The position numbers were made by a program, and so were the translations under genes. A stretch of 64,000 bases of DNA from Alteromonadaceae bacterium (GTDB lineage: Bacteria > Pseudomonadota > Gammaproteobacteria > Enterobacterales > Alteromonadaceae). The stretch spans positions 70,292 to 134,291 of the forward strand of contig CBFHMJ010000028.1 in the NCBI GenBank assembly GCA_965656875.1, written 5' to 3'. Shown here one piece after another: positions 53,316-64,000 of the stretch. Numbering within the stretch: position 1 is the stretch's first letter; every line of letters begins with the position of its first letter. Under the pieces are notes generated by a model. It had not been told where the DNA came from, did no database searches, and worked only from the letters and a program-made list of their open reading frames with translations.

Positions 53316-54073
53316 AATTCAGTGCCTTTTAATCATTATTGAACGAGACAGCGTGTGTAACATATTGATACACAGAGATTGTTAAGCAGAGATGACAAGA
53401 AACTGAGTGTAAAAGAATTAGCAACAAATAACTATATTTCTGGTGTGAGGTATGTCATTGCTAATGAAATGACCCAGTTCCACATTTGTATATATGTTTG
53501 CCTTTGGTTTTTCGTCTGATTTTTAGGTAGGTGTTACTAAGAGTCATGGAAACACAACTAAAGAAATTTAATGTGCGTGATTTACAGTATTTGTGACGGC
53601 AGTAAATTTAATTCAGTGTTTAATTATGTTTCTTGTTTAAATACATTATTTGGTGGTTTTTAAATACTCAAATATGAATTAAATAGTTTAACAGAGAAGC
53701 AGTTTCTATATCTGTTGCTTTATGTTTATTTGCTAATACAAGGAATTACCAGTCAATTGTAATTAAAATGTAAATTATAGCTGTCGAAATATGGCTCTTT
53801 TTTGTCAATCTTTACCTGTCTATATCGGAATTATTATTTAATATAATTAACTAACTTGTGTTGATGATTCTTAAAATTAACAAATATACCTGTTGTTGTC
53901 CCTTTCTATACATCAATCTATATAAAATGTATCTATATTAGATCCAATATTGTTTAGATTATACTCAGTGATATAAAGGATAACATATTAATGGTACAAA
54001 CTGTCGGTTGAAATGTTTACATAAATTTTACGCCGTGTTTATATTCAAAAAAACAACATATATGAATATTAAT

Positions 54074-54089
54074 CCCCGGAAACACGGGG
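54074..54089 (+). promoter_or_regulatory. Perfect GC hairpin (CCCCG-gaaaca-CGGGG) in 5' leader of the dioxygenase gene
   Basis: It lies 29 nt upstream of the ATG at 54118, inside an otherwise AT-rich leader. It could be an attenuator, a processing site or a protein-binding hairpin. Confidence 0.25.
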
Positions 54090-54117
54090 AATATGACGCG
54101 ACAGGAAAATTTAAATC

Positions 54118-55017
54118 ATGAAAACTACCATTCTGACTGGTTCAATCAATCAAGTAGAAGTATCAGATTTCAATTATAAAAATGCATCTGAAGCTGATAT
54201 TCAGGCGTTAAAATCGCTTGTTTACGAGAATAAAATCGTCATTTTTAAAAACCAACATCTTTCGCCATCTGAATACGTTGAATTTTCAAAAATGTTTGGG
54301 ATACCAGAGGCTTACTACCAGCCTATGTATCATCATCCGGAAGAAAAAGAGATCTTTGTTTCTTCAAATGTGCCAAAAGACGGGCGTCAGGTTGGCGTTC
54401 CTCGTACCGGAAAGTTTTGGCATGCAGATTACTCATTTATGAAGAAACCTTTTGCATTCACACTAATATACCCACAGGTCATTCCGACAAAAACACGAGG
54501 CACTTACTTCATAGACATGGGGAAGATGTTTGCGACGTTGTCTGACGAAAACAAAGAAAAGCTTGAAGGAATGACGTGTAAACAATCTGTTCGAAAATAC
54601 TTCAAAATTCGACCTTCTGACGTTTATCGTCCCATCAGTGAAATTTTAAAAGAAATTGAGCAGGAAACCCCGGAAGTCGTCCATAAAGCGGTATTCACTC
54701 ATCCCATAACAGGGGAAGAAATCCTGTATATCAGCGAAGGCTTTAGCCAGGAAATGTTTGATAAAGATAATCAGTCTGTCGGAACAGAGTTTCTTGATGA
54801 GTTACTGACATTAAGCGGCCAAAAAGACAGTGATTTCAATCATGATCTTTTGCATCTTCAACGTTTTGATAAAGGCGATCTGTTGTTTTGGGATAACCGT
54901 TCACTCGTTCATTGTGCTCTGCATACAGATGCTGTTGAGCCAACAGAGTCTTATCGGATAACACTGCATGATGATCACGACTTTTATGAAAACGTTCACG
55001 CATATAACCAGTCCTGA
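54118..55017 (+). CDS. TauD/TfdA-family Fe(II)/2-oxoglutarate-dependent dioxygenase (tailoring hydroxylase)
   Basis: The HxD facial-triad motif is WHADYSF. The C-terminal segment is DNRSLVHCA (second His and the Arg that binds 2OG). The protein is 299 aa. Confidence 0.75.
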   Translation: MKTTILTGSINQVEVSDFNYKNASEADIQALKSLVYENKIVIFKNQHLSPSEYVEFSKMFGIPEAYYQPMYHHPEEKEIFVSSNVPKDGRQVGVPRTGKFWHADYSFMKKPFAFTLIYPQVIPTKTRGTYFIDMGKMFATLSDENKEKLEGMTCKQSVRKYFKIRPSDVYRPISEILKEIEQETPEVVHKAVFTHPITGEEILYISEGFSQEMFDKDNQSVGTEFLDELLTLSGQKDSDFNHDLLHLQRFDKGDLLFWDNRSLVHCALHTDAVEPTESYRITLHDDHDFYENVHAYNQS

Positions 55018-55162
55018 AAGGTCATACGTAGTCAGTGATTTGTTACCCGCAATTTTAAATTCGTTACACCAATTTTAATGTAATTGATTAGGCAACTCGC
55101 ATAAAACCACGGCATAGCGCTTTCAAAAACAAATAAAACGTATAAAAAAGGAAGACAGAACA

Positions 55163-62419: not shown

Positions 62420-62485
62420 ATCATTAATAACCAATGTTCTGCGGTCGCAGCTGGGGCCGCAGACGATCAACTACGGGTAATCACT

Positions 62486-63706
62486 ATGGCCTCTGTTTCA
62501 CCACAGCGAGTAAAAGAGTTAACTCAGATTGCTGATGATTTTCATCAACAATTTTTTAGTGTCAAAATTCCTTTTAGTATGCGATTTATGTACTGGAGCT
62601 ACTATGTTTTGCTTGCTCATAAAGGAACTCTTATCGAATCATCGGAAAAAGATGCGCAGTATCAGGATGGCAGACTAAAACGGGGATATGACAAATATCA
62701 CCAAAAAATCGTTGATCATCTGAATCAAAACTACCCACGTCAGGAAACATTCATCGACATTCCAACATTCAATGCCGATGAAATCAGTGATGAAGAAGTC
62801 CAGTTACTCATGGATTTACGGATACCGTTTGTTTTAAAGGGAGGGGCCAATAAGCTGAAGATGATGGATTGGGATCTGGATTTTTTCAGTGAAAACTTCG
62901 GTGATTGCCCATTACCTATCAACACTGCGCCAGATAAACCAAATGACGACACTAAAAAATCAAATCGTGCGACTAACTACTACGACTTTAAACTGGGGAC
63001 GGTAGGTGAACTGGTTAAGTCGATAAAAGAAGGGGGTAATTTACGTTCAATTGCTGTTGAAGATGTCATGCATCAGCAGGATGGTCGGTTAATCGAAGAT
63101 CTGGATATTCCGATGATGGAGCGTAAAAGTGGTTGGATCAAAAACCAGTTTTCGAGAATAAAGTCAAAATTAATGGTAGGGAAAATAGCCTCTAAGCAAT
63201 TGTTTTTGCAACCCAAATATGCCTACACCATCTGGCATTGTGAGCCCGGTGACAATTTCTTCTTATTACAATCGGGTAAAAAGCAATGGACCATGGCACA
63301 CCCATACCACACCGCGGCATTTAACCCACGCGTAAAGTCAAATACTACGTATCACGGTTGTTCGATTGACGTCCGTGAAGATCAGGCTACTCAGGATAGT
63401 CGGGACAACGAGGCCTATACTCGCGTACCCAAACTGCAATTCAATGCACAACCTGGCGATATTTTACGGTTACCAAATTATTGGTGGCACACCGTTGAAA
63501 CCTTTTCTGATGATTATTCCATCGCAGTAACACTAAGAGCAGCTTGTGTTCCAAACCTTGTTAGCGGTGGTTATCTGGCAATGCGTTTACTGGATAAGGA
63601 TTATCATGAAATGGTTAAGCGAATTAAAAACGGTGGGCGGGTGACGGATAAAGACATCAACCTGAAAATCTTTTCCTATCTGGACAAGCGTAAAAATCAG
63701 TTTTAG
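62486..63706 (+). CDS. JmjC/cupin-8-like domain protein (putative 2OG-dependent hydroxylase), PKS tailoring
   Basis: A C-terminal double-stranded beta-helix region carries the HxE...H pattern (IWHCEPGDNFFLLQSGKKQW ... LPNYWWHTVE). The protein is 406 aa. Confidence 0.5.
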   Translation: MASVSPQRVKELTQIADDFHQQFFSVKIPFSMRFMYWSYYVLLAHKGTLIESSEKDAQYQDGRLKRGYDKYHQKIVDHLNQNYPRQETFIDIPTFNADEISDEEVQLLMDLRIPFVLKGGANKLKMMDWDLDFFSENFGDCPLPINTAPDKPNDDTKKSNRATNYYDFKLGTVGELVKSIKEGGNLRSIAVEDVMHQQDGRLIEDLDIPMMERKSGWIKNQFSRIKSKLMVGKIASKQLFLQPKYAYTIWHCEPGDNFFLLQSGKKQWTMAHPYHTAAFNPRVKSNTTYHGCSIDVREDQATQDSRDNEAYTRVPKLQFNAQPGDILRLPNYWWHTVETFSDDYSIAVTLRAACVPNLVSGGYLAMRLLDKDYHEMVKRIKNGGRVTDKDINLKIFSYLDKRKNQF

Positions 63707-63717
63707 TAGCACATGCA

Positions 63718-64000
63718 ATGAAAGAATATATCGAATATCTATCGACGTTAAGTGAAAAGCAACTTGTTCTTTTGCTGGCTAAACAGAAGCAGGCCCAGAC
63801 GGCACCTGTCGCGATTCTCGGTTGTGGTTGTCGGCTTCCTGGTGATGTAAATAGCATCGAAGCGCTATGGCAAAGCTTACTGAACAATGAAGTACACATC
63901 AGGAAGTACGAACAGGGTCCACCGGGTGCATCCAATCGTCCCCGATGGACAGATTCGTTGCAAGCGGGTAGTAATGCACTGACCTGTGGCGCATACCTCA
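63718..64000 (+). CDS. Second type I PKS, N-terminal docking region and start of KS domain (3' end outside window)
   Basis: The sequence is MKEYIEYLSTLSEKQLVLLLAKQKQAQTAPVAILGCGCRLPGDVNSIEALWQSLL.... The PVAIxGxGCRxPG KS N-terminal signature is present. The gene continues beyond position 64000. Confidence 0.7.
   Translation, partial: MKEYIEYLSTLSEKQLVLLLAKQKQAQTAPVAILGCGCRLPGDVNSIEALWQSLLNNEVHIRKYEQGPPGASNRPRWTDSLQAGSNALTCGAYL

What the first reader, a model, noticed from the sequence alone, without database searches (positions are those of the whole stretch)
53316..64000. Polyketide cluster start: long AT-rich upstream region, TauD hydroxylase, hotdog protein, free ACP, fully reducing PKS, JmjC hydroxylase, second PKS
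The set contains two oxygenases of different 2OG/cupin families, a trans-acting hotdog enzyme, a free ACP and a KS-AT-DH-ER-KR-ACP megasynthase with no thioesterase. This suggests a hydroxylated, fully saturated acyl or polyketide chain that is passed on to the next PKS (or to an NRPS) beyond the window.

The ~800-bp AT-rich gap (53316-54117) upstream is typical of xenogeneically silenced (H-NS-type) horizontally acquired biosynthetic clusters.

The product cannot be predicted from this part alone.
Basis: partly seen in the sequence, partly recalled or inferred. Interest (0 to 1): 0.55.

Follow-up and report, generated by a model that had tools for sequence, protein, structure and literature searches.

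The report
Isonitrile fatty-acid (ScoE-type) polyketide gene cluster

Summary
The genes exist as described, with one correction. The "second PKS" at the window edge is a stand-alone 478-aa ketosynthase, and no further megasynthase follows.

The interpretation needs revising. The "TauD hydroxylase" is an equivalog of ScoE, the Fe/2OG enzyme that turns an N-carboxymethyl-amino acid into an isonitrile. It is about 62% identical to ScoE, and every catalytic and substrate-binding residue checked is conserved. The "hotdog protein" is the FcoT/ScoD-type glycine-adding thioesterase, and the free ACP corresponds to ScoB. An acyl-AMP ligase (ScoC-like) lies just beyond the window.

With one malonyl-specific KS-AT-DH-ER-KR-ACP synthase and an α/β-hydrolase, these form an isonitrile-lipid cluster of the aerocyanidin/amycomicin type. 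It is not a hydroxylated polyketide handed on to an NRPS.

The JmjC (FIH-like) oxygenase belongs to a rare family. In 8 of the 10 distinct loci retrieved it sits in such a cluster: Aliikangiella, Halothiobacillus neapolitanus, Photorhabdus, a Rickettsiella-labelled contig, a cyanobacterium and MAGs. ScoE itself was seen in six of those eight.

The product is unknown, and so are the roles of the JmjC oxygenase and the extra ketosynthase. The 802-bp AT-rich gap is real, but H-NS silencing is untested. This is a new member of a known kind and a good genome-mining lead.

The parts
53316..54117 (.). AT-rich divergent intergenic region upstream of the cluster. It contains a promoter-like site at 54016-54045 (+) and a GC-rich hairpin at 54073-54090 just before the first gene's ribosome-binding site.
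   Evidence: The gap is 802 bp at 28.9% GC. The promoter-like site matches 10 of 12 consensus positions, but the region has fewer such sites than its shuffles. There is no Rfam match, no notable repeats or ORFs, and no sequence conservation with the upstream regions of L002 or L003. A. maris also has at least 1009 bp at 28% GC upstream.
54118..55017 (+). ScoE-type Fe(II)/2-oxoglutarate isonitrile synthase (TauD fold), 299 aa
   Evidence: NCBIfam NF049937 ScoE equivalog, 434.4 bits against a cut-off of 400. PDB ScoE 6dch matches at E=1.6e-112. H132/D134/H295, Y96/Y97/Y101, R157, K193, R195 and R310 are all conserved. The chain-length positions E237/G238/F239, S187 and Y191 are identical to ScoE.
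55163..55696 (+). ScoD/FcoT-type hotdog enzyme (glycine Michael addition to enoyl-ACP, then hydrolysis), 177 aa
   Evidence: Pfam PF10862, E=2.4e-56. NCBIfam ScoD equivalog model scores 197.6 bits, below its cut-off of 250. PDB 5wsy matches at E=8.6e-47 and Rv0098/FcoT (2pfc) at E=2.9e-21.
55713..56105 (+). Free acyl carrier protein (ScoB-like), 130 aa, with a roughly 40-aa C-terminal tail
   Evidence: PP-binding, E=5.6e-10. The LGLNSL serine motif is present.
56111..62419 (+). Single-module fully reducing type I PKS, 2102 aa. Domains: KS 56162-57271, AT 57734-58615, DH 58826-59641, ER 60341-61234, KR 61292-61819, ACP 62117-62314. No TE; acidic C-terminal tail.
   Evidence: Pfam domains are. 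Motifs: KS DTACSS/EAHGTGT/NIGH; AT GHSIGE plus HAFH (malonyl type); DH HKVNGQVVFP and DCAMQ; ER LIHSAAGGVGQAA; KR LDD (B-type) and YAAAN; ACP LGLDSL. The closest whole-length architecture match in NCBIfam is the iterative mycobacterial Pks2.
62486..63706 (+). JmjC/Cupin_8 (FIH-like) Fe(II)/2-oxoglutarate oxygenase, 406 aa, with a roughly 95-aa N-terminal helical extension
   Evidence: Pfam Cupin_8 E=2.5e-15 and JmjC E=7.6e-6. H251, E253, H335, T248 and K266 are invariant and align to FIH T196, H199, D201, K214 and H279. The AF2 model has pLDDT 84.7. Foldseek best hits are FIH, JMJD5 and JMJD7 at E about 1e-14.
63718..64000 (+). Start of a stand-alone type-I-PKS-like ketosynthase (478 aa in full, cut by the window end) with an N-terminal coiled-coil docking-like helix
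   Evidence: The translation is. The full gene is L001 11233-12669, with KS N and C domains only. Cys-His-His is intact in this copy, but the first His is Gln in two of five orthologues.

Best explanation
The region is the 5' part of one co-oriented gene cluster for an isonitrile-bearing fatty acid or polyketide. The core is eight genes: ScoE-like, ScoD-like, ACP, PKS, JmjC, KS, acyl-AMP ligase and α/β-hydrolase. In this genome an MMPL/RND pump, a LolA-like protein and a probable outer-membrane β-barrel follow.

Proposed route:
1. The ligase loads a short 2-enoic acid, most likely crotonate, onto the free ACP.
2. The FcoT/ScoD-type hotdog enzyme adds glycine to C3 by Michael addition and hydrolyses the thioester.
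3. The ScoE-type Fe/2OG enzyme converts the N-carboxymethyl group to an isonitrile by four-electron oxidative decarboxylation, giving 3-isocyanobutanoate.
4. The ligase reloads this acid onto the ACP as a starter unit.
5. The single malonyl-specific KS-AT-DH-ER-KR-ACP synthase extends it, probably iteratively, into a saturated chain with the isonitrile at the ω-1 carbon.
6. The JmjC oxygenase oxidises the chain.
7. The α/β-hydrolase releases the acid, because the PKS has no TE.
8. The MMPL system exports it.

Shown by sequence: the family assignments, intact active sites, the malonyl-type AT, the B-type KR, the short-chain pocket of the ScoE homologue, and conserved co-occurrence of the genes in other genomes.

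Inferred: the order of steps (by analogy with the ScoA-E pathway), iterative use of the PKS, and the roles of the JmjC oxygenase, the extra KS and the hydrolase.
For: - **ScoE assignment.** The protein scores above the NCBIfam equivalog cut-off. It matches solved ScoE at E=1.6e-112 and about 62% identity. All 21 positions inspected are identical to ScoE, including the iron triad, the tyrosines, the carboxylate-binding Arg/Lys and the chain-length positions.
- **Published criterion.** A TauD-family gene together with a PF10862 gene is the operational filter PMC11811631 used to define 365 isonitrilase clusters. It is met here.
- **ScoB- and ScoC-like parts.** The ACP and an AMP-ligase are present. 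The ligase hits the long-chain fatty-acid-CoA ligase model NF004837 at 550 bits and M. tuberculosis FadD10, which is encoded in the homologous Rv0096-0101 locus, at E=5e-62.
- **PKS.** Its catalytic motifs are intact.
- **Conservation.** The same gene set recurs in a Gammaproteobacteria MAG and in Aliikangiella maris in identical order. It recurs rearranged in Pelatocladus (cyanobacterium), a Pseudomonadota MAG, Halothiobacillus neapolitanus, Photorhabdus tasmaniensis and a Rickettsiella-labelled contig.
[quoted passage not shown] The H. neapolitanus homologue was active in vitro on methyl and propyl substrates, and its PKS cluster has no reported product.
- **Boundaries.** Genes flanking the core are not conserved in L002 or L003, and the window contains no NRPS.
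Against: - The ScoD-like protein scores below NCBIfam's equivalog cut-off (197.6 against 250).
- The ligase matches only generic fatty-acid ligase models; no ScoC-specific model matched.
- Nothing here shows expression, an isonitrile product, or iterative use of the PKS.
- The stand-alone KS has no assigned step. Its acidic-tail/basic-helix pairing with the PKS suggests it acts after the PKS rather than before it.
- The Aec and Amc proteins could not be retrieved, so similarity to the characterised clusters rests on gene content and order as published, not on alignment.
Confidence: 0.8

Rival explanations
1. The product is specifically an aerocyanidin-like epoxy-isonitrile antibiotic. The JmjC oxygenase would install the hydroxyl and/or epoxide next to the isonitrile carbon, doing the job that P450s are proposed to do in the amycomicin cluster. 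This is a sharper version of the best explanation, not an opposite of it.
For: - The ScoE homologue has the short-chain (methyl) pocket, as reported for AecA, and aerocyanidin carries a methyl at the isonitrile carbon.
- The published aec protein numbering (AecE, D, C = AUH51994-6; AecA = AUH51997; plus a later-added small AecB) fits the TauD-small-small-PKS-ligase order seen in H. neapolitanus.
- The JmjC protein is the only oxygenase in the core besides ScoE, and it is conserved with the core.
- The amc region also has an α/β-hydrolase.
Against: - No JmjC homologue labelled Chromobacterium or Amycolatopsis appeared in three searches.
- The published list of genes around amc names P450s and no cupin.
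- Known FIH/JMJD5/JMJD7 relatives hydroxylate protein side chains, and no JmjC-fold epoxidase of a lipid is documented in what I could read.
- The paper that settles the aec/amc tailoring steps (JACS 2024, doi 10.1021/jacs.4c06411) is not held.
Confidence: 0.3
2. One reading: two hydroxylases decorate a saturated polyketide that is handed to a further PKS or NRPS outside the window.
For: The domain architecture and the lack of a TE are as described, and a KS-like gene does begin at the window edge.
Against: - The downstream gene is a 478-aa KS only. It is followed by a ligase, a hydrolase and transporters, and then an oppositely oriented protease.
- The TauD protein is a ScoE equivalog with its ScoD partner next to it.
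- There is no NRPS anywhere in the 64 kb.
Confidence: 0.04
3. An isonitrile lipopeptide (INLP/SF2768/kupyaphore-type) metallophore pathway whose NRPS is encoded elsewhere.
For: ScoB-, C-, D- and E-like genes are all present, and isonitrile lipopeptides are the commonest products of such genes.
Against: - None of the eight homologous clusters has a ScoA-like NRPS inside the conserved core, and a PKS always occupies that place. The Rickettsiella-labelled contig does carry an A-T-TE protein about 6 kb beyond its core on the opposite strand.
- The PKS lies between the ACP and the ligase in one operon-like array with 5-145 bp spacers.
Confidence: 0.05
4. A PUFA synthase or heterocyst-glycolipid-type locus.
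For: The PKS gives a weak partial hit to the PfaA model: 325 bits against a cut-off of 1010.
Against: There are no tandem ACPs, no FabA-type DH pair, no chain-length-factor KS, and no glycosyltransferase or pfaB-E-like genes in the core or in the 6 kb downstream.
Confidence: 0.01

Closest known systems
Aerocyanidin (aec, Chromobacterium sp. ATCC 53434) and amycomicin (amc, Amycolatopsis sp. AA4) clusters: ScoE-type isonitrile synthase plus PKS
   Same: - Both pair a ScoE-type isonitrilase (AecA/AmcA), its thioesterase, an ACP and an acyl-ACP ligase with type I PKS genes instead of an NRPS, giving a long-chain isonitrile acid.
- An α/β-hydrolase is nearby in amc.
- A short-chain (methyl) pocket is predicted here, as reported for AecA.
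   Different: - amc has two P450s and FAS-II-like genes and no listed cupin. This cluster has no P450 and a conserved JmjC/Cupin_8 oxygenase.
- This cluster carries an extra stand-alone KS and, in this genome, MMPL, LolA-like and β-barrel export genes.
- The host is a roughly 46% GC bacterium whose nearest named relative for this cluster is the marine gammaproteobacterium Aliikangiella.
- Direct sequence comparison with the Aec and Amc proteins was not possible.
Halothiobacillus neapolitanus ScoE+PKS cluster (isonitrilase 'Hneap' assayed in vitro; product unreported; PMC11811631)
   Same: Same gene set: TauD, FcoT, ACP, 2134-aa KS-AT-DH-ER-KR-ACP, AMP-ligase, Cupin_8 and α/β-hydrolase. Identities to the window proteins are ScoE 51%, PKS 40%, ligase 46% and JmjC 27%.
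   Different: - It has no stand-alone KS, and the JmjC gene follows the ligase rather than the PKS.
- A PPTase and a LuxI/LuxR pair lie next to it.
- It is the P1 position E237, not the pocket as a whole, that differs: Arg in Hneap, Glu in the window protein.
ScoA-E / MmaA-E / Rv0096-0101 isonitrile lipopeptide pathway
   Same: The four isonitrile-forming functions are present: ligase, ACP, FcoT-type thioesterase and Fe/2OG isonitrilase. The ScoE residues are conserved.
   Different: There is no ScoA-type NRPS. The starter is extended by a PKS, so the expected product is a fatty acid or polyketide, not a diacylated amino alcohol.
FIH / JMJD5 / JMJD7 JmjC protein hydroxylases
   Same: Shared double-stranded β-helix fold, an HxD/E...H iron triad and FIH-like Thr/Lys 2OG contacts.
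   Different: - Sequence identity is only 16-19%, and this protein has an extra roughly 95-residue N-terminal helical region.
- Its genomic context is a lipid/PKS operon rather than protein modification.
- The substrate is unknown.

Membership tests
ScoE-type Fe/2OG isonitrile synthase | TauD fold with a 2-His-1-Asp iron triad (H132/D134/H295 in ScoE numbering) | tested here: met
   All three residues are conserved. The Pfam TauD match has E=2e-31.
ScoE-type Fe/2OG isonitrile synthase | Substrate-anchoring residues (Tyr96/97/101, Arg157, Lys193, Arg195, Arg310), and a score above the curated equivalog cut-off | tested here: met
   All are identical to ScoE. NF049937 scores 434.4 bits against a cut-off of 400. 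The match to 6dch has E=1.6e-112.
ScoE-type Fe/2OG isonitrile synthase | Catalytic conversion of the N-carboxymethyl-β-amino acid to the isonitrile | not testable with these tools
   This needs an enzyme assay. The H. neapolitanus homologue from the same cluster family was reported active in vitro.
ScoB-E isonitrile-forming gene set | A PF10862 (FcoT/ScoD) thioesterase encoded next to the isonitrilase | tested here: met
   PF10862 E=2.4e-56, 145 bp downstream of the ScoE homologue. The NCBIfam ScoD equivalog score is 197.6, below its cut-off of 250, so orthology in the strict sense is inconclusive.
ScoB-E isonitrile-forming gene set | A free ACP and an acyl-ACP (AMP-forming) ligase in the cluster | tested here: met
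   ACP at 55713-56105. The AMP-ligase is at L001 12676-14226. Its specificity for ACP rather than CoA was not tested.
Isonitrile lipopeptide (INLP) cluster | A ScoA-type NRPS (C-A-T-R) that condenses the isonitrile acid with Lys or Orn | tested here: not met
   There is no NRPS in the cluster, in the 64-kb window, or in the 6 kb downstream.
Aerocyanidin/amycomicin-type isonitrile polyketide cluster | ScoE-type genes joined to type I PKS gene(s) that extend the isonitrile starter | tested here: met
   A KS-AT-DH-ER-KR-ACP gene lies directly after the ACP gene. This matches the published description of amc and aec.
Aerocyanidin/amycomicin-type isonitrile polyketide cluster | Sequence orthology to AecA-E / AmcA-H and the same tailoring enzymes (P450s in amc) | not testable with these tools
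   The Aec and Amc sequences were not retrievable, and the key paper is not held. There is no P450 here. No Chromobacterium or Amycolatopsis JmjC homologue was found, but those searches have limited sensitivity.
Aerocyanidin/amycomicin-type isonitrile polyketide cluster | An epoxy-isonitrile long-chain acid product | not testable with these tools
   This needs isolation or heterologous expression.
JmjC (FIH-like) 2OG oxygenase | DSBH fold, an HxD/E...H triad, and 2OG-binding Thr and Lys | tested here: met
   H251/E253/H335, T248 and K266 are invariant in 15 sequences and align to FIH T196/H199/D201/K214/H279. Foldseek finds FIH at E=2e-14.
PUFA synthase / heterocyst glycolipid synthase | Tandem ACPs, FabA-type DH domains, a KS-CLF pair, and pfa or hgl partner genes | tested here: not met
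   None of these is present. The PfaA model scores 325 bits against a cut-off of 1010.

The most novel reading that the evidence does not exclude
The conserved FIH-like JmjC enzyme would be a tailoring oxygenase acting on an isonitrile-bearing acyl chain, free or carrier-protein-bound. It might hydroxylate or epoxidise next to the isonitrile carbon. In what I could read, this fold is documented only for protein hydroxylation. The cluster would then make an undescribed isonitrile lipid in marine Gammaproteobacteria. The KS-only protein, whose first catalytic His is replaced by Gln in some orthologues, would act as a non-elongating transfer or off-loading ketosynthase.
Probability: 0.3. Interest if true: 0.6.

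Novelty: new member of a known kind. Interest (0 to 1): 0.42.

Why it matters
Isonitrile lipids are rare and biologically potent. Amycomicin inhibits FabH at about 30 nM, and isonitrile lipopeptides are copper and zinc carriers needed for M. tuberculosis virulence. Only a handful of structures are known, against hundreds of predicted clusters.

This locus places a complete ScoE-PKS cluster in an unnamed bacterium whose nearest named relative for the cluster is a marine gammaproteobacterium. It also defines a small, recognisable subfamily marked by a conserved JmjC oxygenase, and it gives a concrete starter prediction (3-isocyanobutanoyl). That makes product discovery and the JmjC enzyme's chemistry directly testable.

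For the scan itself, the lesson is that a "TauD hydroxylase + hotdog + ACP" trio should be read as an isonitrile cassette.

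Tried and rejected
- **Reading the aerocyanidin/amycomicin biosynthesis papers.** JACS 2024 (doi 10.1021/jacs.4c06411, PMC11334264) and ACS Catal 2022 (PMC9390461) are not held. Searches for AmcQ/AecA and for 'epoxy isonitrile' with cupin found nothing useful.\n- **Retrieving the Chromobacterium aec locus.** It is not among the best 120 ScoE homologues. No Chromobacterium-labelled sequence appeared in the JmjC searches or the genome scan.

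Full report
**1. Observation**

- 54118-55017: TauD, 299 aa, E=2e-31.
- 55163-55696: FcoT-like hotdog, 177 aa, E=2.4e-56.
- 55713-56105: PP-binding ACP, 130 aa.
- 56111-62419: 2102-aa protein with KS, AT, DH, ER, KR and ACP domains and no thioesterase.
- 62486-63706: Cupin_8/JmjC, 406 aa.
- From 63718: a ketosynthase N-terminus running off the window.

The gap 53316-54117 is 802 bp at 28.9% GC in a 46.3% GC window. It is the longest intergenic gap in the window and the second most AT-rich. These are strong domain matches, not chance features.

**2. What lies beyond the window**

A public contig identical to the window over 11,515 bp (L001) continues the locus. The "second PKS" is a 478-aa protein made only of KS domains. 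After it come:
- an AMP-binding ligase (516 aa);
- an α/β-hydrolase (279 aa);
- an MMPL/RND transporter (764 aa);
- a LolA-like/DUF1329 protein (264 aa);
- a 393-aa protein ending in ...SLSYFF, which looks like an outer-membrane β-barrel (my reading of the sequence).

A terminator-like hairpin and a convergent S8 protease gene follow. No further megasynthase follows.

The two giant ORFs elsewhere in the window are not NRPSs. One is an S8 protease with Ig/cadherin repeats and the other a PA14/LamG protein.

**3. Identity of the "TauD hydroxylase" and the "hotdog"**

NCBIfam places the TauD protein in the equivalog family of ScoE, (3R)-3-[(carboxymethyl)amino]fatty acid oxygenase/decarboxylase, at 434 bits against a cut-off of 400. 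It matches the solved ScoE structure at E=1.6e-112.

Aligned to ScoE numbering, the following are all identical:
- the iron triad H132/D134/H295;
- Y96, Y97 and Y101;
- R157, K193, R195 and R310.

Five of the eight positions that PMC11811631 showed to set alkyl-chain length are named in the text I could read: E237/G238/F239, S187 and Y191. All five are identical to ScoE. This predicts a short (methyl, possibly propyl) side chain, that is, a crotonate-derived substrate.

The hotdog protein belongs to PF10862, the FcoT/ScoD family. It is closest to PDB 5wsy (E=8.6e-47) and also matches Rv0098. It scores 197.6 bits on the ScoD equivalog model, below the cut-off of 250.

PMC11811631 used co-occurrence of a TauD-family gene with PF10862 to define isonitrilase clusters, and that criterion is met here. 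The free ACP and the downstream ligase supply the ScoB- and ScoC-like functions. The ligase's PDB matches include FadD10 of the M. tuberculosis Rv0096-0101 locus at E=5e-62.

**4. The synthase**

The motifs are intact:

| Domain | Motif |
|---|---|
| KS | DTACSS, EAHGTGT, NIGH |
| AT | GHSIGE with HAFH (malonyl-type by the usual rule) |
| DH | HKVNGQVVFP and DCAMQ |
| ER | LIHSAAGGVGQAA |
| KR | LDD (B-type) and YAAAN |
| ACP | LGLDSL |

A single fully reducing module of this architecture resembles the iterative mycobacterial Pks2/MAS-type enzymes. Iterative use is an inference. It is consistent with the long saturated chains of aerocyanidin and amycomicin.

**5. The JmjC oxygenase**

H251, E253, H335, T248 and K266 are invariant across 15 homologues. 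They align with FIH T196, H199, D201, K214 and H279. An AlphaFold model (pLDDT 84.7) finds FIH, JMJD5 and JMJD7 as best structural matches at E about 1e-14 and 16-19% identity. It is therefore a credible Fe/2OG oxygenase of the protein-hydroxylase fold, with an extra N-terminal helical region.

The family is rare:
- 14 and then 25 members in the 5.8-billion-protein index;
- 15 representatives at E≤1e-30 among 1.84 billion.

**6. Comparative genomics**

The JmjC searches and the genome scan yielded 10 distinct loci, counting the window's own. In 8 of them the JmjC gene sits in a PKS, ligase and hydrolase cluster of this type. ScoE itself was seen in six of these; for the other two the stored sequence or contig ends before the position where it would lie.

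| Locus | Source | Arrangement |
|---|---|---|
| window / L001 | this genome | reference order |
| L002 | Gammaproteobacteria MAG | same order; 64-78% identity |
| L003 | Aliikangiella maris | same order; 43-65% identity |
| L006 | Pelatocladus (cyanobacterium) | rearranged, plus a desaturase, a SnoaL-like protein and a second ACP |
| L007 | Pseudomonadota MAG | ScoE homologue P0034 comes from a contig of the same length (15,972 bp) |
| L009 | Halothiobacillus neapolitanus | full set without the extra KS; PPTase and LuxI/LuxR adjacent |
| L011 | Photorhabdus tasmaniensis | split PKS, IS-flanked |
| L012 | Rickettsiella-labelled contig | ACP, KS-like, PKS, ligase, JmjC, hydrolase; ScoE region outside the stored flank |

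L008, labelled Flavobacterium, is 99.8% identical to L012 and is counted once. Two Planctomycetota homologues lie in unrelated contexts.

Genes flanking the eight-gene core differ between genomes. The core therefore runs from ScoE to the hydrolase, and its left edge in the window is the AT-rich gap.

**7. Mechanism**

By analogy with the published ScoA-E route and the ScoE-plus-PKS logic of aerocyanidin and amycomicin:
1. The ligase loads a 2-enoic acid on the ACP.
2. The ScoD homologue adds glycine and hydrolyses the thioester.
3. The ScoE homologue makes the isonitrile.
4. The ligase reloads the isonitrile acid.
5. The PKS extends it with malonyl units to a saturated ω-1-isocyano acyl chain.
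6. The JmjC enzyme oxidises it.
7. The hydrolase releases it.
8. In this genome an MMPL, LolA-like and β-barrel set exports it.

The KS-only protein is unresolved. It keeps Cys-His-His here, but the first His is Gln in two of five orthologues (L002 and L007). That pattern is like non-elongating KS0 domains (my knowledge). Its basic N-terminal helix could dock the acidic C-terminal tail of the PKS. I therefore favour a transfer or terminal role over priming, with low confidence.

**8. The AT-rich gap**

- It carries one promoter-like site 70 bp upstream of the start codon, and a GC-rich hairpin. Promoter-like sites are fewer here than in shuffled sequence.
- There is no Rfam match, no notable repeats or ORFs, and no similarity to the upstream DNA of relatives.
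- A. maris also has at least 1 kb of 28% GC upstream, whereas L002 has only 180 bp and a LuxR-type regulator gene.
- Cluster GC is 43.0% against 47.1% for the rest of the window.

H-NS silencing is possible but untested.

**9. Comparison with the known, and novelty**

The kind of system is known: ScoE-type isonitrile formation coupled to a PKS, as in aerocyanidin and amycomicin. One member of this very subfamily, in H. neapolitanus, has had its isonitrilase assayed, with the product unreported.

The differences from amc as published are:
- a JmjC oxygenase and no P450s;
- an extra KS;
- RND-type export genes.

I could not determine whether aec has a JmjC-type gene. From memory, the 2024 JACS paper involves a cupin-domain protein, but I could not verify this. 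I therefore file the locus as a new member of a known kind. The JmjC and KS questions form the part that could prove new.

Noticed in passing
window 37410-50306 (-): A 4298-aa ORF that looks like an NRPS by size is a giant secreted or surface protein: an S8 subtilase domain followed by cadherin-like and bacterial Ig repeats.
   Followed up: partly
window 7015-24420 (+): A 5801-aa ORF with only PA14 and Laminin_G_3 matches. Its C-terminal 2800 aa have no Pfam hit at all. It is probably a giant adhesin.
   Followed up: partly
window 29052-35366: An RNA-repair module: the σ54 activator RtcR lies divergent from an operon of an SPFH/Band-7 protein, RtcB and RtcA. The SPFH gene ahead of rtcB is unusual.
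   Followed up: no
L002 11234-12670 and L007 5896-7383 (orthologues of the KS starting at window 63718): The first catalytic histidine of the stand-alone KS (EAH.TG) is glutamine in two of five orthologues, while the Cys and the second His are invariant. This hints at a non-decarboxylating, transfer-type KS.
   Followed up: partly
L004 9977-11173 and L005 10001-11155 (Planctomycetota): These are the next-closest JmjC homologues (44-46% identity) after the window's own clade, yet they are not in ScoE/PKS clusters. L004's neighbours include an MBOAT acyltransferase and a GDSL-like protein. The family may therefore act on other acylated substrates as well.
   Followed up: partly
L008 against L012: A contig binned as 'Flavobacterium sp.' is 99.8% identical over 12 kb to a contig whose JmjC protein is labelled Candidatus Rickettsiella isopodorum. 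One of the two taxonomic labels is probably a binning error. The look-up index lists this JmjC protein in 148 blocks of the collection.
   Followed up: partly
L009 13211-16353 (H. neapolitanus); L002 687-1475; L012 15512-16327: Relatives of the cluster sit next to LuxR-type regulators. In H. neapolitanus there is a complete LuxI/LuxR pair and a PPTase. This suggests quorum-sensing control in some hosts. The window's copy has no such regulator, only the AT-rich gap and an unannotated 225-aa divergent ORF (52638-53315).
   Followed up: no
L011 (Photorhabdus tasmaniensis CP199718.1, 3012240-3033424): The Photorhabdus version has the PKS split into a KS protein (540 aa) and an AT-DH-ER-KR-ACP protein (1585 aa). 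It is followed by several transposase genes, consistent with recent mobility or decay.
   Followed up: no
L014 7830-8933 (Planktothrix agardhii plasmid p2, NZ_LR882940.1): A distant Cupin_8 protein (24% identity) sits inside a terpenoid-type cluster with a squalene/phytoene synthase, a prenyltransferase-repeat protein and four P450s. This is another case of a JmjC-like cupin in small-molecule biosynthesis.
   Followed up: no
window 50560-52482 (-): An extracellular short-chain PHA/PHB depolymerase with Ig-like and glucodextranase-B domains lies between the giant protease gene and the cluster. It is not conserved next to the cluster in relatives.
   Followed up: no
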